Assembly (NCBI GenBank): GCA_038245905.1
Contig: JBBRRY010000015.1
Location: 1 to 64,000 of the forward strand
DNA from: Thermoanaerobaculia bacterium
GTDB lineage: Bacteria > Acidobacteriota > Thermoanaerobaculia > UBA5066
Direction: 5' to 3'
Length of the DNA stretch: 64,000 nt
Below the pieces are notes generated by a model that did no database searches, had not been told where the DNA came from, and was given only the letters and a program-made list of their open reading frames with translations. Both the position numbers and the translations under genes were made by a program. Of this stretch, positions 7,237 to 28,641 are shown piece by piece; position 1 is the first letter of the stretch; the number at the start of each line of letters is the position of its first letter.

Positions 7237-7821
7237 TCAGCCGGTCTTCGACTTCCCGACGCCCACGGGGCAGGAGACGCCCGTTCCCCCGATGCCGCAG
7301 TAGCCGTCGGGGTTCTTCGCGAGGTACTGCTGGTGGTAGTCCTCGGCGTAATAGAACTCGGGGGCGGGCAGGATCTCGGTCGTGATCGCGCCGTAGCCCG
7401 CGGTGGCGAGTTCCTTCTGGAACGCGATCTTCGACGCCTCGGCCGCCGCGCGCTGCGCCTCGTCGAAGGTATAGATCCCGGACCGGTACTGCGTTCCGGC
7501 GTCGTTCCCTTGTCGCATTCCCTGCGTCGGATCGTGGCTCTCCCAGAAGACCCTCAGGAGATCCTGGTACGAGACGTGCGCGGGATCGAAAACCACGAGC
7601 ACGGTCTCGTTGTGCCCCGTCCGTCCCGTGCAGACCTCGCGGTAGGAAGGGTTCGACGTCGTGCCCGCGGCGTAGCCGACCGCGGTCGAGAAGACGCCCG
7701 GCACCTGCCAGAACTTTTTTTCGGCGCCCCAGAAGCAGCCCATCCCGAAGAGCGCGCGCCGCATTCCCGCGGGGAAGGGCGGCTCGATCGGATGGCCGTT
7801 GACGAAGTGCGCGACGGGCAT
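7237..7821 (-). CDS. msrA: Peptide methionine (S)-sulfoxide reductase
   Basis: [41 protein letters not shown]. Confidence 0.97.
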
Positions 7822-7935
7822 GGCGTCGGATTCTGCGCCTCGTGCGAGCAGAAGAGAAGCGATCCGTTTGCAGAAACCGAACGGTCGTCCCGGTCGATTG
7901 ACTCCCCGAAGGCAGCGGCCTAGATTGCCGTTCAG

Positions 7936-8328
7936 ATGGCTCTTGACGACAAGGTCCGCGCGTACCTTCGCGAACTCGGCGCCGCGCTCAACGAAGCGGT
8001 GTCCTCCTCGGAGAAGGTGCACGAGATCCTCGGGAAGATGAAGGCCGAGGGTTACGGGGTCTATCTCGTCCTCGACGCGACGGTGGCTCTGGAGAAACGG
8101 GGGCGGAGATCGTCGGCGGCTCTTCCCTCGATTCGGCGCGGCGCGCTGCAGGCGGCCCGTGCTCCCGAGGACGGCGAGGGCGCAACCATCGAGCGTGCGG
8201 TCTTCCAGATAAACGTCAAGGACTTGAGCTTCCTGCGCTCCGTCGGGATCGATCCCACGCGGCCCATCCGCTCCCGCCGCCGCCCGCAGGCCGCCGTGAC
8301 GATCCGGTCCACGATCGCGAAACGCTGA
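7936..8328 (+). CDS. Hypothetical protein upstream of rlmN
   Basis: Good codon usage, ATG start, co-oriented 15 bp upstream of rlmN; no recognised domain. Confidence 0.7.
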
Positions 8329-8343
8329 AGTACCCTGCTCGCC

Positions 8344-9432
8344 ATGCAGGATCTTCTGGGTCTTTCCCCTCTCGACGTCGCGCGTGCCGTGCGCGAAGTC
8401 GCGCCGGAGTCCTTCCGCGCTGCGCAGATTTTCAGGTGGATCCACGAGCGGCGCGCCGCGGACTTCAGCGAGATGACGAATCTCCCGAAGGCGATGCGCG
8501 AGGCCCTCGCCAGGGACTTCACGATCGGCCTCCCGAAGACCGTCGCGAGAACCCCTGCGCCCGATAGCTCCGAGAAATTCCTGTTCGAGCTGGCGGACCA
8601 GGCGCGCGTCGAAGCCGTATACATCGTCGAGTCGAAGAAGACACCCTCGTGGACCGACCCCGAGACGCCGGGCGCTTCGCGCGTGACGATCTGCCTGTCC
8701 TCGCAGGCGGGCTGTGCGCTGGACTGCGCATTCTGCGTGACGGGACGTATGGGCGCTGGCCGCAATCTCACGGCGGGAGAGATCGTCGGCCAGTACCTTT
8801 CGATCGCGCGCGCGAAGAGCTTCTCACCGCACGAGGCAAACGTCGTCTTCATGGGCATGGGAGAGCCTCTCTTGAACGTCGCGAACGTGGTGCGGGCGCT
8901 CGATCTTCTCGAGGAGGAGGTCTCGCCGAAGCGCACGACCGTCTCGACGGCGGGCGTCGTGCCAGGAATCGAGACGCTCGCGGGCCGGCCGCACCGGCCG
9001 AACCTCGCCGTGTCGCTCTCGGCCGCGGACGACGAGACGCGGACGAAGCTCATGCCGATCAACCGGACGTATCCCATCGCGCAGCTCCTTGCCGCGCTCA
9101 AGCGGTGGCCGCTCGAGCGCGGGCGGCGCATCACCTTCGAGTACGTCCTCATCACGGGCGTGAACGACGCCGTGCCACAGGCCAAGGCGCTCGCGGCGCT
9201 CCTGCGCCCGCTGCCGTCCAAGGTCAATCTGATTCCCCTCAACGAGTCGAAGGAATGGCTGCCCGGTCTTGCGCGGCCGGCGGATGCAGTCGTGAACGCC
9301 TTTGCGAAAGCGGTCGCGGACGGCGGTGTGCCGGTGACGGTGCGCTGGTCGAAGGGCCTGCAGGCCGACGCGGCGTGCGGTCAGCTCAGGGGGCGCGAAG
9401 AGCCGCGGCGCCCGGTGCAGCAGGCGCTCTGA
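8344..9432 (+). CDS. rlmN: 23S rRNA (adenine2503-C2)-methyltransferase, radical SAM
   Basis: [33 protein letters not shown]. Confidence 0.95.
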
Positions 9433-9434
9433 CT

Positions 9435-10211
9435 TCACCGGGAAAGCCGGACGATTCCAGTCAGGATCCGGCCGGCGGCCGCCCCGTCCCGGCGCCAGGA
9501 AGGGAGATTCTGAGTGCTTGCCGTGCAGGGTCCGCCCGTCACGATGCGCTCGGGGCGAACGCCGCGCGCGCGGAGGGCCGCGAGGTTGAACGCGGCCACG
9601 TCGACGAAAGCCTTTCCGCCCGCGCCAGGCGCGATCGCGCCCTCGGGGGCCCCGCCATACGCCTCGCGGAGCGCGGTGACGACTTCGGGACCGACCTCGT
9701 ACTTCTCGCGCGAGATCGAAGGGCCGAATGCGGCATGGAGGTTCTCCGCCCGTACGCCCTGGGCGGCGAGTGCATCGAGCGCGGCGTCGAGGACGCGCGC
9801 GGCCGTTCCGCGCCAGCCCGCGTGGACGGCCGCGATCCAGCCCGTCTCGGCGTCCGCGAGAACGATCGGAACGCAGTCGGCGGACGCGACGGCGAGGAGG
9901 ACGTTCGGCCGGCAGGTCAGGAGGGCGTCGCCTTCTCCGAGGAGGACGTCCCACCGCTCACGCGGTGGTTCTTCGAAGGTGAGAACGCGGGCGCCGTGCA
10001 CCTGCTTCAGTCTCACGACATCGGCCGCCGGCGCGCCGAGGGCCTCGGCGAGCGCGCGTGCGGCAAGATCGGGGTCGAGCGGGCGCGCGGTCAGGGGTCC
10101 GCGCGTGAACCCGGCCGCGAAACCCGGGACGCCGCCGAGCGACAGACGCGAAACAGCGCTGGCGGGGCTGGCGCCGGCCGAGGTCGCGCGTGCAGGCATC
10201 TCCCGATCCAT
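9435..10211 (-). CDS. pgeF: YfiH/PgeF family (polyphenol oxidase-like / purine nucleoside phosphorylase) protein
   Basis: QVHG, ADCVP, HAGWRG, GPSI, CT...SWRR motifs. Confidence 0.9.
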   Translation of the reverse strand: MDREMPARATSAGASPASAVSRLSLGGVPGFAAGFTRGPLTARPLDPDLAARALAEALGAPAADVVRLKQVHGARVLTFEEPPRERWDVLLGEGDALLTCRPNVLLAVASADCVPIVLADAETGWIAAVHAGWRGTAARVLDAALDALAAQGVRAENLHAAFGPSISREKYEVGPEVVTALREAYGGAPEGAIAPGAGGKAFVDVAAFNLAALRARGVRPERIVTGGPCTASTQNLPSWRRDGAAAGRILTGIVRLSR

Positions 10212-16246: not shown

Positions 16247-16639
16247 TCACCTGTAGATGAGGCGCTCGTGCGACCAGTGGCCAGGGTAGTAACGAGTTCC
16301 GCCGCGCACCCTCTGGTAGCGGGGAGCGATCCAGCGCGCGCGGGCGCGCGGCCGTTCGAACCAGCGGCCGTCGTTCCAGCTCCAGTCCGTACCCGTGTGG
16401 TTCCAATACCCGCCCTGCCATACGTGATTCGGGCCCGGCCGCGCGATGCGGACTTCGTGGCGGCGCTCCGGTGGAGCCTGCGGGACGATGCGGACGTGCA
16501 GATCGCCCATCATCGGGGGCGCGGGCATCCCGGGCGGCACGGGGGGGTGAGGCTGCGCGATCGCCGTCCCCGCGAAGGGCAAGGCGGCCGCCAGCACGAG
16601 GAGAGCGGCGGAGAGAGTGAGATGTTTGGTTTTTCTCAT
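16247..16639 (-). CDS. Secreted YXWGXW-repeat protein
   Basis: Signal peptide; APPERRHE, HVWQGGYW, WSWNDGRW, WIAPRY, YYPGHW repeats. Confidence 0.85.
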   Translation of the reverse strand: MRKTKHLTLSAALLVLAAALPFAGTAIAQPHPPVPPGMPAPPMMGDLHVRIVPQAPPERRHEVRIARPGPNHVWQGGYWNHTGTDWSWNDGRWFERPRARARWIAPRYQRVRGGTRYYPGHWSHERLIYR

Positions 16640-16738
16640 GACTGAGACTCTGCAAGCCTCAGGCCAGAAGGCGACGCTGTGCGGGTCAGAACGCTGGCTT
16701 TCGCACCGGCCTTCTGACATCCTCCGCCCACAAACCCG

Positions 16739-17074
16739 ATGGATCTCTCGCTCCACGAAGACGGAAGTGTCACGGTCGTCACGCTTTCTGGCGACCTCAT
16801 CATCGGCGACGCTGAGGCCGTGTTCAAGAAGACCGTGAGCCGTCTTCTCGAGGAAGGCAAAGTGCAGCTCGTCGTCGATTGCGGAGGCCTCAGATACGTC
16901 GATTCGTCCGGCCTCGGCGCTCTCGTACGCGCGCTCACGACGTCGCAGCACGAGGGCGGCGGGACGAAGCTCCTGGGGGTCCCGTCGTCGCTGCGGAAGC
17001 TTCTCGAGCTGACGAAGCTGGATTCCGTCTTCGAGATGTTCGAACAGCGCGACGAGGCCGTCTCGAGCTTCTAG
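16739..17074 (+). CDS. STAS-domain anti-sigma factor antagonist
   Basis: 111 aa; VVDCGGLRYVDSSGLGAL phosphorylation motif; LELTKLDSVF. Confidence 0.93.
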   Translation: MDLSLHEDGSVTVVTLSGDLIIGDAEAVFKKTVSRLLEEGKVQLVVDCGGLRYVDSSGLGALVRALTTSQHEGGGTKLLGVPSSLRKLLELTKLDSVFEMFEQRDEAVSSF

Positions 17075-17101
17075 ATCGCCGGCGCTCCGGCGCCGGAAAC
17101 G

Positions 17102-19522
17102 GTGCACATGGGTGACGTCCACGGAACGGGCCGGACCTCCGAAGCCGAATCCGGCGTTCTCGGAGAGCTCGCGCGCTGCGAGACCGTCGCGCAGAAGGCG
17201 GCATGGGCCGCACGCTGGTGCGCGCGACTCTCCGGAGCGGACATCGCGCTAGTCTTCTGCGTCGACGCGCCCTCCGGCGGGTGGATCGCCCTCGGCGCTT
17301 CCGGCGAAGGCGCGGCGAAGAGCCTTCGCCGCGTCATCCCACGGGATGCGGGCGTCGCGCGGGATGCCGCGCGCAGTCGCGCGCTCCGCGTGATGCGCCG
17401 CGACGATGCCGCTTTCGTTTCCGATCCGATCGTGTCCCTACTCCCGGGGGGCTCCGGATCTGTCCTCATCGCCCCGCTTCTTCTCGACAAGGGTGCGGCC
17501 GGCGTGGCGGCGCTCTCCTTCCGTCAGGAGCCGGCGGCAGAGCGGATCGGGCGGCTCGAAGCCTTCCTGCCCGACGCCGCCGCGGCACTCGATCGCGCGC
17601 AGCTCGCGGAACGCAAGACGGCCGGGCACCTTTTTGCCATCGAGCGTCTCACGAACCTGTACGACGTCGCGAAAGCGTTCGGCTCGACGATCGATCTGGA
17701 AGACCTGTCCGGACTCATCGCCCGGAAGGCCGCGGACTTCGTGGCGGCCGAGGTCGCGTCGTTCTGGCTTTTCGACTCCGAGGCGGGTGAAGTCTCTCTG
17801 GCGGCGACGGCTCTCAACGAGAACTACGAGATACCGAATCCGCCCGAGTCCATCGGCGGGTCCATCGTCGGGGCCGTCCTCGCGGACCGAACGATCCTGA
17901 GAAACAGCGCGCTCGCGGACGACGATCCCCTCCGGCACGCCGATCCGCCCTTCGAGACACGCTCTGTGCTCGCCGTGCCGCTCGTCGAGGACGACTCTCC
18001 GGTCGGCGTCCTCGTCGCCGCCAACAAGCGCGGGCGCCGCCCGGAGTTCACCGCGGCGGACGAGGAGCTACTCGTCGACGTCGCCCGGCAAGCCGTCGCC
18101 GCCTTGCGTAACGCGCGGCAGTACGAGGCCGAGAAGAAAGTCGAGGAACTGGACGCCCTCCTCGCGGTGAGCCACGAGATCACCTCGACGCTCGACCTCG
18201 ACAAGGTGATGCGGACGATCGTCAACGGAGCGTCGGCCCTGATCCGTTACGACCTTTGCGCAATCGCGATCCTTCAGCGGGGGAAGCTGCGGATTGGGGC
18301 GGTCTCAGGGGCGTTGGACGTGGACCGGAAAGAGCCGTCGGTTCGGCGGACCGAGGCGCTCCTCGAGTGGGTCTTCTTCGGCGGCTCCGACGTCGCCGTC
18401 ACGCGCCGCGAGGACGGCACCATCGCCACCGACCGCCCGGAGACAGAGGAGAAGTTCCGCGCGTTCTTCGACGAGAGCGGCCGCAACGCGTTCTACGGAG
18501 TCCTGCTCGAGGACGACGAGGGAAAACTTGGCGTTCTCGGCTTCGAGTCGACGGAGCCCCTCGAGTTCGAGGCGGAGACCCGGGATCTCCTCCGGATCCT
18601 CGTCAACCAGGCCACCGTGGCCGTCCGCAATGCCCAGCTCTACCAGCAGGTTCCCCTGCCTGGCTTCCTCCGGCCTCTCGCGGAGCGGACACGGAAGCTG
18701 CGGGAGCAGCCCGGCAACCGCGCCCGGCGATGGGTGCTCGGGAGCGCTGGTGCCATGGTCCTTTTGGCCGTCCTGCCGTGGAATGTGAGGGTGTCCGGGC
18801 CCGCGCGGGTCGTGCCGGGCCGGCGGATCCCGGTCACGGCGTCCGTGGAAGGCGTCGTCGAGAGCGTGGCGCATCGCGAGGGGGATGCCGTCGTCGCCGG
18901 GGCCGTCCTCGCGACGCTTCGCGACGACGCCTACCGCGCCGCGGCGGCAGAGGCGCGCGCGGCCGAACAGATCGCCGACTCCGAGGTCTCCCGGCACCGC
19001 GCCGAGGGAAACGCTCCCGCACTTTTCCAGTCCGCCGCCCGCCGCGACGAATTGCGGGCGCGCGCGGCTCTCGCGGAGGAGAAGCTCGAGAGGACGCGCC
19101 TCCGCGCGCCCGAGGCCGGCATCATCCTGACGCCACGGCTCGAGGAGCGCCTCGGCCAGCTCCTTCCCGCCGGCGCCGAGTTCGCGGTCCTCGCCGAGAC
19201 GTCCGCCGTCCTCGTCGAGGTGGCCGTGCCGGAACGGGATGCGTCGCTCCTCGCCGCCGGGCAGAGGGTCGACGTCAAGCTGAACTCATATCCCGCGGCG
19301 ACGTTCCACGGGACCGTCGCCCGCCTCGGCGCCGTCGTCCGCGAGGAAGGTGAGGAGCGTTTCGTCATCGCCGAGGCGCGCGTCGAGAACGCGGACGCGC
19401 TGCTCCGGCCCGGAATGCTCGGGAAAGCCAAAGTTTCGACGGGACGCCAGCGGCTTCTCCGCGCCCTCCTCCGCAAGCCGGCGCGCTGGTTCTGGGTACG
19501 GCTCTGGCCTCTCCTGCCGTGA
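17102..19522 (+). CDS. Multi-GAF domain / membrane fusion protein (HlyD/RND periplasmic adaptor) fusion
   Basis: About three GAF-like repeats (LIAPLL, LAVPLVEDDSPVGVLVAANK...FTAADEELL, NQATVAVRNAQLY), one TM helix, then lipoyl/hairpin MFP (EGVVESVAHREGDAV; LRAPEAG; LRPGM). Start is GTG 17102 or ATG 17108. Confidence 0.88.
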   Translation: MHMGDVHGTGRTSEAESGVLGELARCETVAQKAAWAARWCARLSGADIALVFCVDAPSGGWIALGASGEGAAKSLRRVIPRDAGVARDAARSRALRVMRRDDAAFVSDPIVSLLPGGSGSVLIAPLLLDKGAAGVAALSFRQEPAAERIGRLEAFLPDAAAALDRAQLAERKTAGHLFAIERLTNLYDVAKAFGSTIDLEDLSGLIARKAADFVAAEVASFWLFDSEAGEVSLAATALNENYEIPNPPESIGGSIVGAVLADRTILRNSALADDDPLRHADPPFETRSVLAVPLVEDDSPVGVLVAANKRGRRPEFTAADEELLVDVARQAVAALRNARQYEAEKKVEELDALLAVSHEITSTLDLDKVMRTIVNGASALIRYDLCAIAILQRGKLRIGAVSGALDVDRKEPSVRRTEALLEWVFFGGSDVAVTRREDGTIATDRPETEEKFRAFFDESGRNAFYGVLLEDDEGKLGVLGFESTEPLEFEAETRDLLRILVNQATVAVRNAQLYQQVPLPGFLRPLAERTRKLREQPGNRARRWVLGSAGAMVLLAVLPWNVRVSGPARVVPGRRIPVTASVEGVVESVAHREGDAVVAGAVLATLRDDAYRAAAAEARAAEQIADSEVSRHRAEGNAPALFQSAARRDELRARAALAEEKLERTRLRAPEAGIILTPRLEERLGQLLPAGAEFAVLAETSAVLVEVAVPERDASLLAAGQRVDVKLNSYPAATFHGTVARLGAVVREEGEERFVIAEARVENADALLRPGMLGKAKVSTGRQRLLRALLRKPARWFWVRLWPLLP

Positions 19523-21714
19523 GCGCAGCTGCGCCGGACCCGGTCTCGCGGTACGTTGCGGCCGCCCGCGGCGGACGCGGCGCGGCGGCTCTCGCCGCGC
19601 GCCACACCCCTCGGCAGGACCACCCCGCCCTTCGGGCGGACCTCGTCATCCGCCGCCAGGTGCGAATCGGCGAGGTCACCTGGGTCGTCAAGCAACCGGA
19701 GGCGAACAAGTTCTACAACTTCGAGGACGCCGACTGGACCCTCATCGAGCTTTTCGACGGAACGCGGAGTCTCACTGAAATCCGCGAGGAGTACTGCCGG
19801 CGGGTCCCGGGAGGCGAGATCGCCTTCACCCTCATCCTCGACTACCAGGAGATGCTGCAAAGGATCGAGTTCCTGGAGCAGTCGGCGGCCGAGAAGAACC
19901 TCCAGCTCCTGTCGAAGTTCAAGACCCTGAGGCAGAAAGCGGCGGAGGAGCGCGCGGAGGGTTTCAACATCCTCTTCATGCTCTTCAAGGTCTTCGACCC
20001 CGACCGGATCCTCAATCGGACGATCCGGTACGTCCGCTGGCTCTGGAGTCCCCCCGTCGTCGCGGTCGCCTGTGTCGCGTTCCTCTTCACGATCGGTGTC
20101 TTCGCGGCGCGCTTCGACACGATCTGGGCCCAGACGATCGAGCTCTACTCGTTCCTGAGAAAGCCGTTCTGGGACTTCGTCCAATTCTGGGTCATCCTGA
20201 CCACGATCGGCTGCATCCACGAGTTCGGTCATGGCTATGCCACGAAGATGTACGGGGGCGAGGTCCATGACATGGGGATCGCCCTCCTCTACTTCATGCC
20301 TGCCTTTTACTGCGACACGACGGACTCGCTCCTCTTCCCGAGCAAGTGGCAGAAGCTGACGGTCACGGTGGCGGGGATCTACATCGAGGCGATCCTCTGC
20401 ACGATCGCGACGGCGCTCTGGGTGGCGAGCTACCCCGACACGCTTCTCCACGAGCTGGCCTACAAGACGATGCTCTTCACCGGGGTCTCGACGATCTTCT
20501 TCAACATCAACCCCCTCGTGAAGATCGACGGCTACTACGCGCTTTGCAGCCTCACCGAGATCCCGGAGCTGCGCGAGGAGTCTTTCCGCTGGATGGGCGC
20601 GATCTTCCAGCGCCACATCCTCCGCCTGAACGTCGAGGTGCCGGTCGTGTCGCGGCGGAAGAGGCGGATCTTCCTGATCTACGGTCCGCTCGCGCTGGGC
20701 TACATCGGTTTCATCATGGCGTTCATCACGAAGCTCCTCGACAACTTCTACTCGAAGGTCGTCCCGGAGCTGGCCGTCGTCCTCCTCCTCGTCACGCTCT
20801 ACTTCTTCTTCCGGAAGAGGGTCCGCCTCGTCCTCCGGATCTCCCGCCTCTTCTATCTCGACAAGAAGGAGCTCGTCATGTCGCCGCGCGCCCGTCTCCC
20901 TCTCCTTGCTGCCGCCGCCGGCCTCGTCCTCTTTCTCGCCGTCCCCTGGGGCCGGCGGACGATCAGGATGGACGCCGTCCTCGAGCCCGCCGCGTCGGTG
21001 AAGGTCGAGGCCCCGGAGGACGGAGTCGTGCGGGAGGTCTTCGCGCGCGAAGGGGACATCCTGCGGGCGGGCCAACCGCTTTTCCGGATCGAGAGCCCCG
21101 GCGTCGTGGCCGATTCCGCGTCCCTCTCGGCCCGCCGCGCGGGGGCTGCCGACGAGATGGGAAGGAGCTTCCGGTCCGGAGACGCCGGGGAGGTCTATCG
21201 GGCCGAGCGGAAGGAGGGGGCGGCCGCAGCCGGTCTTGCCCTCGACACGGCGCGCACGGCGCGACTCTCCGTGCTCAGCCCGATGGACGGGCGTCTCCTT
21301 TCGGAAGGCGCGGAAAACCTCGTCGGCAGGTGGGTTACGGCAGGAACCGTTCTCGGAACAGTTGGCGCCACGCGGCAGCTCACGGCAGTATTCCCGGTCT
21401 CGGAGCGCCTTCTGACAGACCTTGTGGTCGGAGCGCCGGTTTCGGTGCAGCTTCGCGCGCGCCCGTTCCACATCCTCCACGGCACGATTGTTTCCATAGC
21501 TCCCGCGTCTCAGGCCGCTTCGTCCGACACCCCCCCGGCACTCCGCCCGTCCGAAACGCCCGGCCGCATCGTGGCTGTGGCGCGTTTCGAAAATCCCGAC
21601 GGCAGCCTGAAGCCGAGGCTCGAAGGGAGGGCGAAGATCAGGGGGCCTCGGAGCTCGCTCCTCGGAGAGGGCTTCCGGATCCTCTCCCGTTGGCTCCGCG
21701 CGATCGCCTGGTGA
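19519..21714 (+). CDS. RRE/PqqD-like domain + M50 (site-2) metalloprotease + HlyD/MFP fusion
   Basis: N-terminal PALRADL...KQPEANKFYNF...FDGTRSLTEI winged-helix pattern; IHEFGH (HExxH) and NINPLVKIDGY; C-terminal MFP (APEDGVVREVFAREGDIL). Start overlaps the upstream stop. Confidence 0.88.
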   Translation: MSAAAPDPVSRYVAAARGGRGAAALAARHTPRQDHPALRADLVIRRQVRIGEVTWVVKQPEANKFYNFEDADWTLIELFDGTRSLTEIREEYCRRVPGGEIAFTLILDYQEMLQRIEFLEQSAAEKNLQLLSKFKTLRQKAAEERAEGFNILFMLFKVFDPDRILNRTIRYVRWLWSPPVVAVACVAFLFTIGVFAARFDTIWAQTIELYSFLRKPFWDFVQFWVILTTIGCIHEFGHGYATKMYGGEVHDMGIALLYFMPAFYCDTTDSLLFPSKWQKLTVTVAGIYIEAILCTIATALWVASYPDTLLHELAYKTMLFTGVSTIFFNINPLVKIDGYYALCSLTEIPELREESFRWMGAIFQRHILRLNVEVPVVSRRKRRIFLIYGPLALGYIGFIMAFITKLLDNFYSKVVPELAVVLLLVTLYFFFRKRVRLVLRISRLFYLDKKELVMSPRARLPLLAAAAGLVLFLAVPWGRRTIRMDAVLEPAASVKVEAPEDGVVREVFAREGDILRAGQPLFRIESPGVVADSASLSARRAGAADEMGRSFRSGDAGEVYRAERKEGAAAAGLALDTARTARLSVLSPMDGRLLSEGAENLVGRWVTAGTVLGTVGATRQLTAVFPVSERLLTDLVVGAPVSVQLRARPFHILHGTIVSIAPASQAASSDTPPALRPSETPGRIVAVARFENPDGSLKPRLEGRAKIRGPRSSLLGEGFRILSRWLRAIAW

Positions 21715-21724
21715 CCGTAAACAC

Positions 21725-21752
21725 GAGCGCCCCGGCCGGAGCCGGGGCGCTC
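21725..21752. terminator. Perfect 12-bp hairpin between convergent genes (probable terminator)
   Basis: GAGCGCCCCGGC-CGGA-GCCGGGGCGCTC, followed on the minus strand by GTGTTT. Confidence 0.7.
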
Positions 21753-21774
21753 ATGGACGCGGGGAGATGCGCCG

Positions 21775-22179
21775 TCAGTCGGCGTTGTCCGTCGCCCGCG
21801 CGTTCAGGATTTTGGGGGCCGCCTGCGTGCGGGCCGCGGTAACGCGGGGGGCCGCCTGCGCGCGGGCCGCGGTAACGCGGGGGGCCGCCTGGGCGCGGGC
21901 TGCGGTGACGCGAGGAGCCGCCTGCGCGCGGGCTGCGGTGACGCGAGGAGCCGCCTGCGCGCGAGCCGCGGTGACGCGAGCGGCTGCCTGCGCGCGCGCC
22001 ATGTTGACGCGGGGGGCCGCCTGCACACGGGCGCTCGTGACCTTGGCCGAAGTCGTCGGCGTCATGGCGGGGTTGTTGCCGAGATTGCTGACGCGGATCT
22101 CACCGACGGCCTGACCGGTCGCCTGCTTGATCTTCGCCTTCTGCTCGTCGGTCAGCTTGATCCGTACTTCGTTTGCCAT
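21775..22179 (-). CDS. 134-aa leader + tandem-repeat peptide; candidate exported precursor peptide
   Basis: AGGAGG RBS then ATG 22179; leader MANEVRIKLTDEQKAKIKQATG...; eight 11-aa units; synonymous variation between units. Confidence 0.85.
   Translation of the reverse strand: MANEVRIKLTDEQKAKIKQATGQAVGEIRVSNLGNNPAMTPTTSAKVTSARVQAAPRVNMARAQAAARVTAARAQAAPRVTAARAQAAPRVTAARAQAAPRVTAARAQAAPRVTAARTQAAPKILNARATDNAD
21781..22044 (-). repeat. Coding tandem repeat, 8 x 33 bp (consensus RVTAARAQAAP)
   Basis: On the plus strand GCCTG recurs at 21821, 21854, 21887, 21920, 21953, 21986 and 22019; terminal units are degenerate. Confidence 0.95.
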
Positions 22180-22243
22180 GGTGGCCTCCTCTTTCTTTCG
22201 TTCTTCCGTTCTCGTTGTCCCTGGCTTGGGGCGCAATCTCAAT

Positions 22244-22260
22244 TGCAAAGAGGGGGCCAG
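22244..22260 (-). promoter_or_regulatory. Sigma54 (-24/-12) promoter for the repeat-peptide gene
   Basis: Minus strand CTGGCCCCCTCTTTGCA = TGGC-N7-TTGCA, exact GG-N10-GC spacing, adjacent to a sigma54 activator gene. Confidence 0.75.
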
Positions 22261-22333: not shown

Positions 22334-22369
22334 CGATGACTCTTTCAACCTCGGTTGACGGATTCATCG
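22334..22369. promoter_or_regulatory. Dyad-symmetric candidate enhancer (UAS) for the sigma54 activator
   Basis: CGATGA-N5-TCAACC-TC-GGTTGA-N5-TCATCG, about 90 bp upstream of the -24 element; a related half-site GTTGA-N7-TCGA lies at 22291-22306. Confidence 0.5.
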
Positions 22370-22375
22370 GTCCGC

Positions 22376-23773
22376 TCAGAGGCGGTACTTCCGGCAGAGG
22401 TACTTCATCTGGTTTGCGTCGAGGCCGAGTGCTTCGGCGGCCCGCACCTTCACGCCTCCGGCGCGGGAAATGGCCTGGCTCACGAGCTCCCGTTCGAACC
22501 TTCCGACCGACTCGGCAAGGGAGAGGTCGGCAGAGTGCGTCGCGGCGGGTTGGGCCGGCTCCCGGGAGCCGCCGGCCCGGCCCAACGTCCCCGGCAGATG
22601 CTCCTCCCCGATCGTGTCGCCGTCCACCATGAGCGTCAGCATCTCGACGAGGTGTTCCAGCTCGCGCACGTTTCCGCGGAAGATGTGTCGCCCGAGCACC
22701 TCGAAGGCTTCGGACGAGAAGGCCTTCGGGCGGCGGCCATGGCGCTCTGCGGCCCGCGCCGTGAAGAATTCCACGAGCAAGGGGATGTCCTCGCGCCGCT
22801 CTCTCAGCGGCGGAATCCTCAGGATGACGGTGTTCAGGCGATAGAAGAGGTCATTGCGGAACGTTCCCGCCGCCACCTGACGCTCCAGGTCTTCGTTCGT
22901 GGCCGCGACGAGCCGGATGTCGACGTGGATCGTCTTCGTCCCGCCGACCCGCTCGAAGTCGCGCTGCTCGAGGACGCGCAACAACTTGGCCTGTACGGCC
23001 GGGGATAGTGTCGCGACTTCGTCCAGGAAGAGCGTCCCGCCGTGAGCCATCTCGAAACGCCCGGGCCGGGAGGCCACGGCCCCGGTGAAGGCACCCCGCT
23101 CATGGCCGAAGAGCTCGGACTCGGCTAGCGTCTCCGTGAGCGCCGAGCTGTTCACGGCTACGAACGGCCCGTCCCGGCGAGTGCTCCCCCGGTGGATCGC
23201 TTCGGCCACGAGCTCTTTCCCCGTTCCGCTTTCACCGGTCACGAGGACGGTCGCGTCGGTGGGGGCCACCTTCTCGATGGCGGCGAAGAGCCCGCGCATG
23301 CTTGGGCTCTCGCCCACCAGCCCGCCGTACGACCCACGCTTGAAGATCTCCTCCTTCAGCGCCCGGTTTTCAGCCAGGATGCGGTGTCGCTCCAAGGCTC
23401 GCCCGAGAACGAGGAGCAGCTCCGACTTCTCGAAGGGCTTCCGGAAGAAATCGAATGCACCCAGCTCGACGGCTTTCAGCGCCCAGCGGCGCTCCGCCTC
23501 CGCCGTCATGACCACGACCGTGGCGGCCGGCTGGCGCTGCCGAATGGCCCGCAGCAGACGGAGCCCCTCTTCCGCCTCGCCCGACGGCGGGAGCCGGAGG
23601 TCGACGAGGTAGACGTCGGGCTCGAGCTCGGCCAGCTTGAGCCCCGCGGCGGCGTCCCCTGCACTGTGGACTTCGAACCTGTCCTTCAGAGCCCAGAGGA
23701 GCTGGTCGCGCAGGAGCGGATCGTCTTCCACGACGGCGAGGCGCCCCTCCACCGTCTTTTGGACCACGCCCAC
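22376..23773 (-). CDS. Sigma54-dependent response regulator (REC-AAA+-HTH), PrsR/NtrC-like
   Basis: VVEDD, DLRLPP, GESGTGKE, ESELFGHERGAFTGA, FLDEV, DLFYRL, GNVREL, C-terminal Fis HTH. Confidence 0.95.
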   Translation of the reverse strand: MGVVQKTVEGRLAVVEDDPLLRDQLLWALKDRFEVHSAGDAAAGLKLAELEPDVYLVDLRLPPSGEAEEGLRLLRAIRQRQPAATVVVMTAEAERRWALKAVELGAFDFFRKPFEKSELLLVLGRALERHRILAENRALKEEIFKRGSYGGLVGESPSMRGLFAAIEKVAPTDATVLVTGESGTGKELVAEAIHRGSTRRDGPFVAVNSSALTETLAESELFGHERGAFTGAVASRPGRFEMAHGGTLFLDEVATLSPAVQAKLLRVLEQRDFERVGGTKTIHVDIRLVAATNEDLERQVAAGTFRNDLFYRLNTVILRIPPLRERREDIPLLVEFFTARAAERHGRRPKAFSSEAFEVLGRHIFRGNVRELEHLVEMLTLMVDGDTIGEEHLPGTLGRAGGSREPAQPAATHSADLSLAESVGRFERELVSQAISRAGGVKVRAAEALGLDANQMKYLCRKYRL

Positions 23774-23775
23774 GC

Positions 23776-24477
23776 CTACACCTGCCGGCCAGGCGCGGCC
23801 GGAAGCGGCAGGAAGAGACGGACGCTGGTGCCCTCGCCCTCCGCACTTCTAACCTCGACGTCGCCCCGGTGGTGGCGCAGGATGCGGCGCGCCGTGTAGA
23901 GACCGAGTCCCACGCCTCCGGGCTTCGTCGTCTGGAACGGCCGGAACAGGCGCCGCCGCACGAACTCTCCCGACATCCCGGGCCCGTCGTCCTCGACGTC
24001 GACCACGGCGAAGTCTCGCGCCCCTCGCCGCTCGAGGCTCGTGCGTACCGTCACGCAGCTCTTCGCGGCCTCCTGCGCGTTCTGAATCACGCCCTGGATC
24101 GCCTCTTGCAAGTAGTAAGGGTCGCCCCAGAGCCCGGGGACCTCGGCGAAGGTCGCGTTCATCCGCGGTGTCGACGCCCGCCCCCGGGGGTGGCACGTGT
24201 GCAGGGCCTCCCGGATCAGGTCGTTCAGATCGAGCGGCACCTTGATGAGGACCGAGTCGCGATGAGCCGACCAGCTTCTCGCGATCCCGTCGAGCTTCTG
24301 GACGGTGGATTGCAGGAGGTCCGTGGCGCTGCGTTTGAAATCCGGATCGCCGTAGTGCTCCTCCATGTTCGACAGGAGAAGGCTGAGGCGGAGCTCGAGG
24401 TTCCGGATGTCGTGGATGAGGACGGAGTCCTTCGTGGCGCGGATGCGTCGACGCGGGGCAGCCGTGCGTGTCGCCAT
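23776..24477 (-). CDS. Histidine kinase core (HisKA + HATPase), PrsK-like, without a sensor domain
   Basis: IHDIRNL H-box, IQNAQEA N-box, EDDGPGM, LFRPFQTTKPGGVGLGL; only about 20 aa precede the H-box. Confidence 0.88.
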   Translation of the reverse strand: MATRTAAPRRRIRATKDSVLIHDIRNLELRLSLLLSNMEEHYGDPDFKRSATDLLQSTVQKLDGIARSWSAHRDSVLIKVPLDLNDLIREALHTCHPRGRASTPRMNATFAEVPGLWGDPYYLQEAIQGVIQNAQEAAKSCVTVRTSLERRGARDFAVVDVEDDGPGMSGEFVRRRLFRPFQTTKPGGVGLGLYTARRILRHHRGDVEVRSAEGEGTSVRLFLPLPAAPGRQV

Positions 24478-24481
24478 GGTT

Positions 24482-25264
24482 TCAGGGCCGGGAAGGCGCA
24501 CGGAACGTGAGCCGGACCGCCATCCCCGGCCGCAGTATTTTTTTCGGATCGTGCTTCACCCGCACGATCACCTGCACCGTCCCGCTGCCCGGATCGATGA
24601 CGGGGCTGATGAACGAGACGCGCCCGCTCGAGCGTGCGTCCGGGAAATCCGGAGCCTCCACGGTCACTTCGTCACCGGTCTTCACGGTCTGAAGGCCGGA
24701 GGCCGGCAGATAGGCGCGCGCCAGAAGCGGCTGGAGCGCCATCACCTTGAAGAGCGGTTTGCTCTCTTCGAGCGTGAACTTTTCCCCCACGCGCGCGTAA
24801 CGGTCCGCCACGATCCCGTCGAAGGGAGCGCGCACCACGGACCGGTCGATCACGAGTTTCGCCCTCTCCAGCTCCACGAGGGCCAGCTCGTGTCGCGATC
24901 TTCTCTGCTCGAACTCGGCCTCGCTCGTCAGATTCTGGCGGCGCAGCTCCTCGTACCTTTTCAGGTCCGCGAGACTCACGGCGAGCGTCTCCTCCGCGGC
25001 TCTCAGATCCAGGCGGAACTCGCGCTGGTCCAGCGTGGCGAGCGGCTGCGACTTCCGCACGAGCTCGCCCCGCTCGACCTGGATCGAGTCGATCACGCCG
25101 CTGACCCGAGTCGTCACCGTGACTTCCTGCTCGACCATCAGGTTCGAGGCGACGGTGAGCGGCGCAGGAAGCGCCGGCGCCGGCAGAGCGGCGCTGGCCC
25201 TCGCGAGCGCAAGGAGGGAGACGGCGATGAACGCCCGACCGGTAAGCCGGATTGAGTCGCGCGT
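24482..25264 (-). CDS. Efflux RND/HlyD-type periplasmic adaptor (MFP), apparent ACG start
   Basis: VSGVIDSIQVERGELV, VRAPFDGIV, GRVSFISPVIDPGSGT, LRPGM. GGAGG lies 8 nt before an in-frame ACG that opens a signal-peptide-like segment; start uncertain. Confidence 0.85.
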   Translation of the reverse strand, partial: TRDSIRLTGRAFIAVSLLALARASAALPAPALPAPLTVASNLMVEQEVTVTTRVSGVIDSIQVERGELVRKSQPLATLDQREFRLDLRAAEETLAVSLADLKRYEELRRQNLTSEAEFEQRRSRHELALVELERAKLVIDRSVVRAPFDGIVADRYARVGEKFTLEESKPLFKVMALQPLLARAYLPASGLQTVKTGDEVTVEAPDFPDARSSGRVSFISPVIDPGSGTVQVIVRVKHDPKKILRPGMAVRLTFRAPSRP

Positions 25265-25305
25265 GACTTTTTCCTCCAGGGTGTCTGGAACGGAATGATA
25301 CCGAA

Positions 25306-26547: not shown

Positions 26548-28641
26548 TCAGCGCCCGGACACGAGGTCTTCGGGTTTCCACGGCGAGGCGGCGCCGCCGA
26601 GGAACCTGTGGAACCAGTCGAGGTGCGCCGCGTAGTAGAGGCCCATCTCGAACGCGCTCGGCCAGTGGCCCGCCTTCTCGAACACGATCAGGCGCGACGG
26701 CACGCCGCGCGCCTGCAGGTCCGTGAAGAATTCGAGCGACTGCGTATAGGGAACGCGGAAGTCCTTTTCGCCGGTAATGACGAGGCAAGGGGTGCGGAAA
26801 TCTGTCACGTACGAGGACGGCGATTGCTTCGCGTAGAGGTCTCCGTTCTCCCACGGCGCGCCCTTGATGTCCCACTGGGGGAACCAGACCTCCTCGGTCG
26901 AGGAGTACATCGCGCGCAGGTCGTAGACGCCCATCATCGAGGCGAGGGCCTTGAACCTCGTCGTGTGGCCTTCGAGCCACATCGTCGCGTAGCCGCCCCA
27001 GGACCAGCCCATCGCGCCCATGCGGCTCTTGTCCACATACGGAAGCCTCTCGAGCGCGTCCGCGACTTTCTCGATGTCGGTCATCACGCGGCCGTTCCAG
27101 TCGCCCGAGATGGCCGACGTGTAGGCCTGGCCGAATCCGGTCGAGCCGTGCGGATTCGGAAATCCGACGACGTAACCCGCGCCCGGATAGACCTGCCAGT
27201 CGCCGCGGTAGGAGTCCGCCCACTGCTGCTGCGGCCCGCCGTGGATGTTCAGGATGAGCGGGTACTTCTTCGCAGGATCGAAGCCGTGCGGCTTGACGAT
27301 CCAGACCTGCACGGGCTGTCCGTCGGCACCGGGCACGCTGATCTCCTCGGCCGGCCGGATGTCGACCTCGTTTTCGAGGGCGGCGTTGTGCGTCGTCAGG
27401 CGCTGTCCCGCCTCGTCCGCGCCTTTCGCGAGAGAGAGGCGGTAGAGTTCGAGCGGGCTCCCGATGCGGCGCCGCGCGGCCACGGCGAAGGTCACGTCCG
27501 GCGCGAGCGTCCACGCGTCGAGAGACCCGACGGACGACACCGCGCGGAAGGCGCCCGTCGCGAGGACGATCTCGTAGAGCGGCGTTCGCCCCTTCACGTC
27601 GGCCGTGAAGAAGATCCGGCTTCCGTCCCGCGAGAAGTCGAAGTCGCGGACCGCGTTGTCGAACCTGGCCGTGAGGTCACGCTCGGCGCCGGTCGCGCGG
27701 TCCCGGAGGACGATCCGGAAGCGGTCGGCCTCGTAGCGGGGCGTGAGCTGCCGCTTGAAGGCGAGGAAGCGGCCGTCGGGGGAATAACGCGGCGACCCGT
27801 CGTAGCCCTTGTTCCAGGCCGTGAGATTTTTCGGGACTCCGTCACCCTTCACGGCGACGGTCCAGACGTCCGCGTTCGTCGAGAAGGCGGCGTCCGCGTC
27901 GCGGTTCGAAGAGAACGTGAGCTCGGTCCCGTCCGGCGAGAGGTCGAAGTCCCGCCCGCCACCGACCGAGAAGACGGGCGAGTCGAAGTCGCCCGGTGTC
28001 AGGTCGCGAATCGCCTTCGCCGCGTCGGGCTCGGCAAGGTCGAGGATGAAAACATGCGTGCGCTTCCCGTCCTTCCACTCGGTCCAGTGCCGGTAGAGGA
28101 GGGCGTCCGCGAGGTGCGCCTTGATCTTGTTCGCCTCGTGCGCGTCGGCCGCCTTCTTGTTGCACGCCGCGTCGGCGCCGCAGGAGGGGACGACGTCCGC
28201 CGCGAAGAAGACGGACCGGCCGTCCTTCGAGAAGGCCGGCCCGTCGATCCCTCCGGGGAACCGGGTCTTCTGCTCGGCCTCGCCGCCGCCAAGAGGGAGG
28301 AAGAAAAGCTGCGGTTCACCCGTACGCGTCGAAACGAACGCGAGCGTCTTTCCGTCAGGCGAGAAGAACGGGTGCTCGTCGCGCGCGTCGCCTGCGGTGA
28401 TCGGCCGGGCGTTTGTCCCGTCCGCGTCCACGCGCCAAAGGGCGGCGGTCTTCCTCTTCGTCGCCCAGTCGTTCGTCGTGACGGTGTAGACGATCGCCTT
28501 CCCGTCGGGCGAGATCGCGGGCTCGCCGACGGCCTTCACGCGATAGAGGTCCTCGAGCGTGAAGGCGCGGCCGGAGGAGGCGGCGAGAGCGGGAGAGGCG
28601 AGGACGAAGAAGAGGGCGAAGGCGGTGGACAGTTTCGGCAT
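26548..28641 (-). CDS. Secreted S9 family peptidase (PD40 propeller + catalytic domain)
   Basis: Signal peptide, SPDG repeats, IHGGP, GWSWGG, GEKDFRVP, AGH. Confidence 0.95.
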   Translation of the reverse strand: MPKLSTAFALFFVLASPALAASSGRAFTLEDLYRVKAVGEPAISPDGKAIVYTVTTNDWATKRKTAALWRVDADGTNARPITAGDARDEHPFFSPDGKTLAFVSTRTGEPQLFFLPLGGGEAEQKTRFPGGIDGPAFSKDGRSVFFAADVVPSCGADAACNKKAADAHEANKIKAHLADALLYRHWTEWKDGKRTHVFILDLAEPDAAKAIRDLTPGDFDSPVFSVGGGRDFDLSPDGTELTFSSNRDADAAFSTNADVWTVAVKGDGVPKNLTAWNKGYDGSPRYSPDGRFLAFKRQLTPRYEADRFRIVLRDRATGAERDLTARFDNAVRDFDFSRDGSRIFFTADVKGRTPLYEIVLATGAFRAVSSVGSLDAWTLAPDVTFAVAARRRIGSPLELYRLSLAKGADEAGQRLTTHNAALENEVDIRPAEEISVPGADGQPVQVWIVKPHGFDPAKKYPLILNIHGGPQQQWADSYRGDWQVYPGAGYVVGFPNPHGSTGFGQAYTSAISGDWNGRVMTDIEKVADALERLPYVDKSRMGAMGWSWGGYATMWLEGHTTRFKALASMMGVYDLRAMYSSTEEVWFPQWDIKGAPWENGDLYAKQSPSSYVTDFRTPCLVITGEKDFRVPYTQSLEFFTDLQARGVPSRLIVFEKAGHWPSAFEMGLYYAAHLDWFHRFLGGAASPWKPEDLVSGR

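What the first reader, a model, noticed from the sequence alone, without database searches (positions are those of the whole stretch)
21775..22179. Precursor-like peptide: 45-aa leader plus eight cationic 11-aa cassettes
Seen: the leader MANEVRIKLTDEQKAKIKQATGQAVGEIRVSNLGNNPAMTPTTSA is followed by KVTSARVQAAP, RVNMARAQAAA, RVTAARAQAAP x4, RVTAARTQAAP and KILNARATDNA-D. There are two basic residues per unit, no acidic residue until the last few, no Cys or aromatics, and no Sec/Tat signal. Identical peptide units differ at synonymous sites (GTT/GTC, GCC/GCT, CCC/CCT), in adjacent pairs, which indicates stepwise duplication under protein-level selection. Strong AGGAGG RBS. Inference: a multi-core RiPP/pheromone or antimicrobial precursor, or a secreted polycationic DNA/EPS-binding or fibre-forming protein.
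Basis: partly seen in the sequence, partly recalled or inferred. Interest (0 to 1): 0.82.

Follow-up and report, generated by a model that had tools for sequence, protein, structure and literature searches.

The report
Leader-plus-tandem-repeat peptide, protease-exporter cargo
This small gene encodes a conserved 40-residue leader followed by identical short peptide repeats that differ completely between species, and it always sits between a sigma-54 switch and a membrane protease carrying a leader-binding domain, so it is most likely the cargo of an unstudied peptide processing and export system.

Summary
Window 21775-22179 (minus strand) encodes a 134-aa peptide with a conserved N-terminal module and eight 11-aa cationic units. 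The identical units differ almost only at synonymous third-codon positions.

The leader defines a family: 77 of 401 sampled genomes of the class and 130 hits in 1.84 billion representatives. Its repeat cores vary in unit length (4-24 aa), sequence and even charge (32 of 37 cationic, 5 anionic).

In all 20 loci inspected the gene lies in one seven-gene cassette: STAS, GAF-HlyD, RRE-M50-HlyD, peptide, sigma-54 response regulator, kinase, HlyD. A -24/-12 promoter precedes 37 of 37 genes. The N-terminus of the M50 protein models as a RiPP recognition element; the top PDB fold matches are lasso-peptide RREs and PqqD.

Best reading: a sigma-54-induced, leader-guided substrate of this protease/adaptor machine. 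No modifying enzyme is conserved, so it is not a demonstrated RiPP. Release of single units is unproven. A DNA-binding polycation role is disfavoured.

The machine was noted in 2015 without a substrate, and I found no paper on the peptides. This scan has met the same system on other genomes. Verdict: a new variant of a known kind.

The parts
21775..22179 (-). Peptide gene, 134 aa plus stop
   Evidence: Frame supported by synonymous bias.
22066..22179 (-). Conserved leader module, residues 1-38. Modelled as strand 5-8, helix 11-21, strand 27-30. Ends at the conserved Asn36-Pro37.
   Evidence: A1 alignment has 82% mean column identity. The AF2 model has pLDDT 74-88 over residues 1-30. Found in 77 of 401 genomes.
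21781..22044 (-). Eight 11-aa units, residues 46-133. The TRF array spans 21814-22032 with a 33-nt period.
22185..22190 (-). Shine-Dalgarno AGGAGG, 5 nt before the ATG
   Evidence: Read. GGAGG-like sites are seen upstream in relatives.
22245..22259 (-). Sigma-54 type -24/-12 promoter, TGGCCCCCTCTTTGC
   Evidence: The same motif lies at -43 to -81 in 37 of 37 relatives.
22335..22368 (-). Two tandem palindromes (TGA-N5-TCA cores, 19 nt apart), a candidate enhancer for the sigma-54 activator
   Evidence: At least one site in 32 of 37 upstream regions against 1.4 expected from shuffles; spaced pairs in 13 of 37 against 0.01 expected.
21725..21752 (.). 12-bp GC-rich hairpin between the two convergent genes, terminator-like
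   Evidence: Read; partly flagged.
19519..21714 (+). RRE - M50 site-2 protease (HEFGH, NPLVKIDG) - HlyD adaptor fusion, 731 aa, convergent with the peptide gene
17102..19522 (+). GAF-GAF-HlyD protein, 806 aa
16739..17074 (+). STAS-domain protein
22376..23773 (-). Sigma-54-dependent response regulator (receiver, AAA+, HTH_8)
23776..24501 (-). Histidine kinase, 241 aa, resembling the PrsK C-terminus, with no Pfam sensor domain matched
24482..25267 (-). Third HlyD/RND_mfp adaptor. The start is approximate; the listed ORF runs to 25747.

Best explanation
The gene encodes the dedicated substrate ('cargo') of the adjacent RRE-M50-HlyD protein.

Shown:
- It is a translated small gene with a conserved beta-alpha-beta leader and an array of near-identical units.
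- It is preceded by a conserved sigma-54 promoter and enhancer-like palindromes, next to a sigma-54 activator.
- It is always convergent with a membrane site-2 protease whose N-terminal domain has the RiPP-recognition-element fold.

Inferred:
- The two-component pair switches the gene on.
- The cytoplasmic RRE binds the leader.
- The M50 domain cuts the leader off, probably near the conserved Asn-Pro at residues 36-37. This is by analogy with the daptide peptidase, whose leader ends in Pro.
- The repeat core leaves the cell through a tunnel built from the three HlyD-type proteins.
- The unit sequence itself is the selected product, either as a periodic polymer or, less certainly (about 0.3), as separately released 11-mers.
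For: (1) Family. Leader homologs are 68-89% identical with unrelated repeat cores. The leader HMM hits 77 of 401 class genomes and 130 representatives at E<=1e-3, 79 of them at E<=1e-10.

(2) Context. All 20 loci inspected keep the seven-gene cassette, and the flanks are not conserved. I chose these 20 from the 77 for long contigs; they cover about 9 genera. In other Acidobacteriota classes and one Gemmatimonadaceae MAG, M50-HlyD lies beside the peptide in 11 of 12 loci, and the twelfth ends at a contig edge. It does so in 5 of 5 further loci.

(3) Co-occurrence in the same 401 genomes: 75 have both, 2 the leader only, 3 the M50 only, 321 neither. All 5 exceptions are assemblies of 230-720 contigs.

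(4) RRE. The AF2 model has pLDDT about 90 over residues 40-120, with three strands then three helices. The top Foldseek PDB matches are TbiB1 with its leader peptide, PqqD, lasso B1, CteB, ThcOx and TruD (TM to target 0.61-0.73, best E 2e-3). The best PDB profile hit is PqqD at E 0.14. NF041824 daptide_HExxH scores 169 bits over profile positions 17-366 of 379.

(5) Translation and constraint on units. In 37 genes, unit-versus-next-unit codon differences are 775 synonymous against 820 non-synonymous in frame, compared with 189/1424 and 80/1504 out of frame. GC3 is 0.84 in frame against 0.68 and 0.65. The reading frame has the highest synonymous fraction in 32 of 37 genes.

(6) Regulation. The -24/-12 motif precedes 37 of 37 genes and palindromes precede 32 of 37. 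The activator is adjacent.

(7) Distant members carry short non-repeat tails after '...ELEERIAP', which resembles the daptide leader motif ELExMEAP quoted in passages of 10.1101/2023.03.08.531785.
Against: - No transcript, peptide or cleavage product has been observed.
- No transporter or ATPase is in the cassette, and only one SecA_DEAD gene exists in this 96%-complete genome, so export has no identified energy source.
- The core is hydrophilic, unlike known substrates of intramembrane M50 proteases.
- The NF041824 and YydH/LiaK scores are far below their cut-offs (169 against 300; 49 against 225).
- Foldseek E-values for the RRE are modest.
- About 22 of the 37 repeat types contain no proline or other motif shared with the leader end (my reading), so repeated cleavage at a common site is not general.
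- Membrane topology (RRE in the cytoplasm, HlyD in the periplasm) was not established; the crude hydropathy was inconclusive.
Confidence: 0.6

Rival explanations
1. Cytoplasmic regulated-proteolysis substrate. As with pro-sigma-K and SpoIVFB, the M50 protease cleaves the peptide at the inner face of the membrane, and a fragment (leader or core) acts inside the cell as a regulator. The HlyD, GAF and STAS parts only gate the protease.
For: - M50 proteases classically signal by intramembrane proteolysis (established knowledge).
- The cassette is rich in signalling parts: STAS, GAF, kinase and activator. In Blastocatellia loci there are also an FHA-GAF-SpoIIE phosphatase, a Ser/Thr kinase and an ECF sigma factor.
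- The leader is as conserved as the enzymes, 52-87% against 46-83% for M50-HlyD in the same 20 loci.
- No pump is present.
Against: - Three periplasmic adaptor domains make little sense without passage across the envelope.
- A regulator would not be expected to change unit length, sequence and charge between species while keeping units identical within a gene.
Confidence: 0.15
2. The conserved N-terminal module is the functional part, for example a small folded domain that binds or regulates the machine. The repeat tail is then a disordered spacer or tether with no product role.
For: - The leader models as a compact beta-alpha-beta unit.
- It is highly conserved.
- The cores are low-complexity and not alignable between genera.
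Against: Within arrays the amino-acid units stay identical while synonymous sites diverge, for example 56 synonymous against 5 non-synonymous, 38 against 5, and 53 against 10 in three genes. This argues for selection on the exact unit sequence, which a spacer would not need.
Confidence: 0.12
3. Histone-H1-like, AlgP-like polycation that binds DNA, polyphosphate or exopolymer in or on the cell, unrelated to the neighbouring protease.
For: - The window's core is Ala/Arg/Pro-rich with net charge +14.
- A distant member with KKAAP repeats gives a sub-threshold hit to histone H1-like families, 30 bits against a cut-off of 80.
Against: - 5 of 37 orthologous cores are acidic, with net charge -14 to -21.
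- The window peptide hits no NCBIfam family and only a sub-threshold Pfam Apolipoprotein match, 30.5 bits against 90.
- Synteny and co-occurrence with the RRE-protease are strict.
Confidence: 0.04

Closest known systems
Daptide system: precursor MpaA and leader peptidase MpaP, an RRE fused to an intramembrane site-2 protease (bioRxiv 10.1101/2023.03.08.531785, passages read; NCBIfam NF041824)
   Same: A small leader-bearing peptide lies next to an RRE-M50 protease. The leader ends in Pro in daptides, and a conserved Asn-Pro ends the leader here. The profile match covers both the RRE and the protease.
   Different: The score is below the family cut-off. No MpaB/C/D/M-type enzymes are conserved. 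There is no C-terminal Thr. The core is hydrophilic and tandemly repeated. The protease is fused to an HlyD adaptor. Control is by sigma-54. The host is Acidobacteriota.
Conserved module GAF-HlyD / Peptidase_M50 / HlyD-biotin_lipoyl / secondary SecA_DEAD (PLoS One 2015, PMC4452313, passages read)
   Same: The same three kinds of HlyD-bearing proteins, with an M50 membrane protein proposed as the pore and function unknown.
   Different: That paper names no substrate and does not mention Acidobacteria (0 occurrences). Here there is no secondary SecA_DEAD, but there is a dedicated peptide gene and a sigma-54 two-component pair.
Multi-copy peptide precursors (recalled, not tested here): cyanobactin PatE-type multi-core precursors, yeast alpha-factor, animal neuropeptide precursors
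   Same: One leader is followed by several identical units whose codons differ synonymously.
   Different: No flanking recognition sequences are shared by all family members. There are no modifying or macrocyclising enzymes. Release of units is not shown.
Double-glycine leader peptides exported by C39-peptidase ABC transporters with an HlyD adaptor, for example colicin V CvaAB-TolC (recalled)
   Same: Leader removal is coupled to export through an HlyD-type adaptor.
   Different: There is no ABC transporter, no C39 domain and no GG cleavage motif in this peptide. Only two distant family members show sub-threshold GG-leader similarity.
PrsK/PrsR sigma-54 control of PEP-CTERM proteins (NCBIfam TIGR02915/TIGR02916)
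   Same: The regulator and kinase score best against these models, 429 and 143 bits. Both control low-complexity target genes through sigma-54.
   Different: Both scores are below the cut-offs (502.6 and 300). The kinase lacks the long PrsK membrane part. The peptide has no PEP-CTERM motif.

Membership tests
Daptide precursor / MpaP system | RRE domain fused N-terminally to an M50 site-2 protease | tested here: met
   AF2 model and Foldseek hits to RRE proteins. Peptidase_M50 with HEFGH and NPLVKIDG.
Daptide precursor / MpaP system | Protease reaches the NF041824 cut-off of 300 bits | tested here: not met
   169.4 bits
Daptide precursor / MpaP system | Precursor with an invariant C-terminal Thr and a hydrophobic core (per passages of 10.1101/2023.03.08.531785) | tested here: not met
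   The peptide ends ...TDNAD and the core is hydrophilic.
Daptide precursor / MpaP system | Oxidative decarboxylase, aminotransferase and methyltransferase genes in the cluster | tested here: not met
   None lies among the seven conserved genes. A class I/II aminotransferase lies next to the cassette in the window but in none of the 20 other loci.
RiPP precursor (general) | Conserved leader plus variable core, with an RRE-bearing partner encoded nearby | tested here: met
RiPP precursor (general) | At least one post-translational modification enzyme acting on the core | tested here: not met
   No candidate is found in the conserved cassette. Modification by unlinked enzymes cannot be excluded.
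RiPP precursor (general) | Physical binding of the leader to the RRE, and cleavage | not testable with these tools
   Needs a binding or cleavage assay.
Double-glycine bacteriocin/pheromone precursors | GG-type leader and a C39 peptidase ABC exporter | tested here: not met
   No GG motif at the leader end. No ABC or C39 gene in the cassette.
Histone H1-like / AlgP-like basic repeat proteins | Match to the family models, with basic repeats conserved among orthologs | tested here: not met
   No NCBIfam hit for the window peptide. Orthologs include acidic cores.
GAF-HlyD / M50 / HlyD / SecA_DEAD module (PMC4452313) | GAF-HlyD, M50 membrane protein and HlyD/biotin_lipoyl protein encoded together | tested here: met
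GAF-HlyD / M50 / HlyD / SecA_DEAD module (PMC4452313) | Secondary SecA_DEAD protein | tested here: not met
   There is one PF07517 match in the genome, a 968-aa frame on another contig. The genome is 96% complete.
Sigma-54-dependent gene | -24 GG / -12 GC promoter at correct spacing, with a nearby enhancer-binding protein | tested here: met
   (motif level only; no transcript data)

The most novel reading that the evidence does not exclude
This is a bacterial counterpart of the yeast alpha-factor or neuropeptide precursor. One sigma-54-induced transcript yields many copies of a short, unmodified, species-specific peptide. The copies are cut out after leader-guided docking on an RRE-site-2-protease and passed outward through a pump-less tunnel of three HlyD-type proteins. 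The adjacent kinase/activator pair senses the peptide or the flux and closes an autoinduction loop. The complete turnover of unit sequence between species would then be dialect formation in a cell-cell signal.
Probability: 0.15. Interest if true: 0.9.

Novelty: new variant of a known kind. Interest (0 to 1): 0.72.

Why it matters
Leader-guided peptide maturation is well known. This family combines features not described together in the papers I could search:
- tandem arrays of identical units that are replaced wholesale between species;
- an RRE-protease fused to a periplasmic adaptor;
- three adaptors with no pump;
- a private sigma-54 switch.

It supplies a candidate substrate for an envelope machine that was reported in 2015 with unknown function. 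That makes the machine's role directly testable by co-expression and mass spectrometry. It also points to a possible unmodified multi-copy peptide signal, or extracellular periodic polymer, in abundant uncultured soil and sediment Acidobacteriota.

Tried and rejected
- Complex prediction of M50-HlyD residues 30-450 plus Zn with the 45-aa leader gave 'no answer' (score 0.02, mark 0.32). It is no evidence either way.
- Sequencing runs: no RNA holder was listed. Only one DNA run holds the stretch, and it may be the source sample.
- ESM Atlas look-up of the peptide gave no usable hit.
- Own-genome search for paralogs found none beyond compositional matches at E>0.02.
- My first sigma-54 pattern had the wrong spacer (0 matches); it was corrected. 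My first enhancer regex was wrong (0 of 37); it was corrected.
- The wide alignment A4 was too diverse for the search for related loci. I used the narrower A5 instead.
- The repeat finder on the minus strand was rejected and not repeated.
- Crude hydropathy for membrane topology was inconclusive, and the script stopped on a stop codon.
- S9 prolyl-oligopeptidase-family gene next to the cassette (26548-28641). I considered it as a post-proline unit-releasing enzyme and rejected that link. It has no counterpart in the 20 related loci. The apparent S9 hits in Blastocatellia loci are PD40 repeats of a Ser/Thr kinase.
- Amphipathic 11-mer helix (Apolipoprotein-like, 30.5 bits against a cut-off of 90). 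Rejected as a family property, because unit lengths range from 4 to 24 aa.
- Literature searches found nothing on this peptide family. One search found only the 2015 module paper. Supplements were not seen.

Full report
THE OBSERVATION

An AGGAGG lies five bases upstream at 22185-22190.

Tandem Repeats Finder reports a 33-nt period with 6.6 copies and 88% matches at 21814-22032.

Among units 3-7, 32 of 36 pairwise nucleotide differences are at third codon positions. Codon differences are 31 synonymous against 4 non-synonymous in this frame, compared with 4/26 and 0/30 in the other two frames. These pairwise counts are not independent.

The peptide has no Cys or aromatic residue and no hydrophobic segment.

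A FAMILY WITH A FIXED HEAD AND A FREE TAIL

Searching with residues 1-45 found 20 proteins of 74-233 aa that are 68-89% identical in the leader but have unrelated repeat tails. Two carry the source label 'Thermoanaerobaculia bacterium'.

A 19-sequence leader alignment has 82% mean column identity. It matched 77 of 401 sampled genomes of the class, concentrated in three families: 16/37, 54/58 and 4/4, against 2/96 in a fourth family and 0 in the rest. These tallies include the unpublished genomes G004 and G104. Usually there is one copy per genome. There is no paralog in the window's genome.

Against 1.84 billion cluster representatives the profile found 130 proteins at E<=1e-3, 79 of them at E<=1e-10.

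From loci L009-L058 I extracted 44 distinct peptides. I dropped 6 that were cut by contig ends and one 572-aa read-through, leaving 37. In these 37:
- the repeat period ranges from 4 to 24 aa;
- the net core charge ranges from -21 to +36;
- 32 are cationic and 5 are anionic, the anionic ones coming from three genomes.

Cationic character is therefore a property of this gene, not of the family.

THE TAIL IS TRANSLATED AND ITS UNITS ARE CONSTRAINED

Across the 37 genes, comparing each codon with the codon one unit later gives:
- 775 synonymous against 820 non-synonymous differences in the reading frame;
- 189/1424 and 80/1504 in the other two frames;
- GC3 of 0.84 in frame against 0.68 and 0.65 out of frame;
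- the highest synonymous fraction in the reading frame in 32 of 37 genes.

In several genes the units are almost perfectly identical as protein while their DNA has diverged, for example 56 synonymous against 5 non-synonymous, 38 against 5, and 53 against 10. Gene conversion alone would homogenise the DNA as well. So the exact unit sequence appears to be under purifying selection within a lineage, although it is replaced entirely between lineages.

CONTEXT

Pfam and NCBIfam identify the neighbours:
- a STAS protein at 16739-17074;
- a GAF-GAF-HlyD protein at 17102-19522;
- an M50-HlyD protein at 19519-21714;
- on the peptide's strand, an HlyD adaptor, a 241-aa histidine kinase and a sigma-54-dependent response regulator at 22376-23773.

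I fetched 20 loci, chosen from the 77 for long contigs and covering about nine genera. All 20 keep this seven-gene order, and the flanking genes of the window are not conserved.

The RRE-M50 part of the protease was found in 78 of the same 401 genomes. Comparing the lists gives 75 genomes with both, 2 with the leader only, 3 with the protease only and 321 with neither. The five exceptions are assemblies of 230-720 contigs. Five of 18 genomes of the window's own genus lack both, so the cassette is gained or lost as a unit.

THE PARTNER CARRIES A LEADER-BINDING FOLD

The first 135 residues of the M50-HlyD protein, modelled with 18 homologs, give pLDDT of about 90 over residues 40-120, with three strands followed by three helices.

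The best Foldseek matches in the PDB are all RiPP recognition elements:
- TbiB1 bound to its leader peptide;
- PqqD;
- lasso-peptide B1;
- the RRE parts of CteB, ThcOx and TruD.

TM-scores to target are 0.61-0.73 and the best E-value is 2e-3. The best sequence-profile hit in the PDB is PqqD at a weak E of 0.14.

NCBIfam's daptide intramembrane metalloprotease model aligns over nearly its whole length at 169 bits, below its 300-bit cut-off. Passages of the daptide preprint state that this peptidase is an RRE fused to a site-2 protease that removes a leader ending in Pro.

The HExxH and NxxPxxxxDG motifs are intact in the window protein.

The leader alone models as strand 5-8, helix 11-21 and strand 27-30 at moderate confidence.

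REGULATION

A TGGC-N7-TTGC site lies at 22245-22259 on the gene's strand. The window holds 4 matches in total against 1.24 expected. A -24/-12-type motif lies 43-81 nt before the start codon in 37 of 37 genes.

Further upstream, palindromes with a TGA-N5-TCA core occur in 32 of 37 upstream regions, against 1.4 expected from shuffles. In 13 of 37 they occur as pairs 15-25 nt apart, against 0.01 expected. The window has two, at 22335-22368.

A 12-bp GC hairpin at 21725-21752 separates the convergent genes.

No RNA data could be found.

WIDER RELATIVES

Weaker hits of the leader profile are small proteins with the same head, followed by other repeat types or by short non-repeat tails after '...ELEERIAP'.

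A genome-collection scan returned 12 loci: Pyrinomonadaceae and other Blastocatellia, other Acidobacteriota, one MAG labelled Clostridia and one Gemmatimonadaceae.
- 11 of the 12 have an M50-HlyD gene beside the peptide; the twelfth ends at a contig edge.
- 10 of the 12 have the sigma-54 regulator.

In the Blastocatellia-type loci each unit contains a '(D/E)RANP' motif that also ends the leader. This is the one clade where a repeated cleavage site is suggested. In the window each unit ends in Ala-Ala-Pro and the leader ends in Asn-Asn-Pro. By my reading, about 22 of the 37 repeat types have no proline at all.

A phylum sample gave 20 of 401 genomes with a match. Five further loci all show regulator, peptide, then M50-HlyD.

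Blastocatellia loci add an FHA-GAF-SpoIIE phosphatase, a Ser/Thr kinase and an ECF sigma factor.

WHAT IT MOST LIKELY IS

The best-supported reading is a sigma-54-induced, leader-guided substrate of the RRE-M50-HlyD protein (confidence 0.6).

Shown: the family, the frame, the unit constraint, the strict synteny and co-occurrence, the RRE fold, and the promoter motifs.

Inferred: binding, the cleavage position, export, and the nature of the product.

Points against:
- no pump or ATPase lies in the cassette, and the genome has only its ordinary SecA;
- the core is hydrophilic;
- family scores are sub-threshold;
- topology is not established.

Rivals are a cytoplasmic regulated-proteolysis substrate (0.15), a functional head with a mere spacer tail (0.12) and a histone-like polycation (0.04). 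The histone-like reading is weakened by the acidic orthologs.

KNOWN OR NEW

The closest characterised system is the daptide peptidase and its precursor. Membership fails on the score cut-off, the C-terminal Thr, the hydrophobic core and the modification enzymes.

The machine (GAF-HlyD, M50, HlyD/biotin-lipoyl) was described as a conserved module of unknown function in 2015, together with a secondary SecA_DEAD protein that is absent here. The passages I read name no substrate, and the paper does not mention Acidobacteria.

Six literature searches found no description of these peptides. Subscription journals and supplements were not searched.

Earlier notes of this scan describe the same system on other genomes. 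I re-tested their main claims here: the RRE fold, the synteny, the enhancer palindromes and the 2015 paper.

I rate it a new variant of a known kind, with interest 0.72.

Noticed in passing
37 family peptides from loci L009-L058 (table): 12 of 37 peptides end in Val (for example ...SMV...SSV...GTV). Many others, including the window's ...TDNAD, end in a short acidic tail. Within the window's genus the C-terminal '...NAR(A/S)T..(N/D)D' cap is kept while the repeats change. This may be a C-terminal recognition or stop element.
   Followed up: partly
window 26548-28641 (-): A signal-peptide-bearing PD40 plus S9 prolyl-oligopeptidase-family peptidase lies three genes from the cassette. This is tempting, given that the units end in Pro, but it is not conserved in the 20 related loci.
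   Followed up: yes
L055 and L058: In two genomes the peptide ORF runs on out of the repeats into a long, unrelated Arg/Gly/Pro-rich reading (572 and 194 aa). This is probably a frameshift or assembly slip inside the repeat array.
   Followed up: no
L051 and L057: Two genomes carry two tandem peptide genes. All four products are acidic (repeats of the SAQDL or EEGLR type), and each gene has its own -24/-12 motif.
   Followed up: partly
L039 (G212), M50-HlyD at 7473-9667: The M50-HlyD gene of this same-genus genome is matched in three pieces in different frames. This is either a broken gene or long-read indel errors.
   Followed up: no
window 16579-16593 and 16652-16666 (-): There are two more TGGC-N7-TTGC matches just upstream of, or inside the start region of, the WXXGXW-repeat lipoprotein-like ORF (16247-17122, minus strand) next to the cassette. 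They may be another sigma-54 promoter.
   Followed up: no
L068 305-7236: In a Blastocatellia-type locus the cassette is preceded by an ECF sigma factor, a Ser/Thr kinase with a PD40 propeller, STAS and an FHA-GAF-SpoIIE phosphatase. This is a partner-switching set that the window's cassette lacks. A 23S rRNA intervening-sequence protein gene also sits between M50-HlyD and HlyD.
   Followed up: partly
window 21767-22114 (+) and 21804-22028 (-): Long open frames overlap the repeat on the other strand and in another frame (115 and 74 aa). They are by-products of the GC-rich repeat; the synonymous-site pattern supports only the annotated frame.
   Followed up: yes
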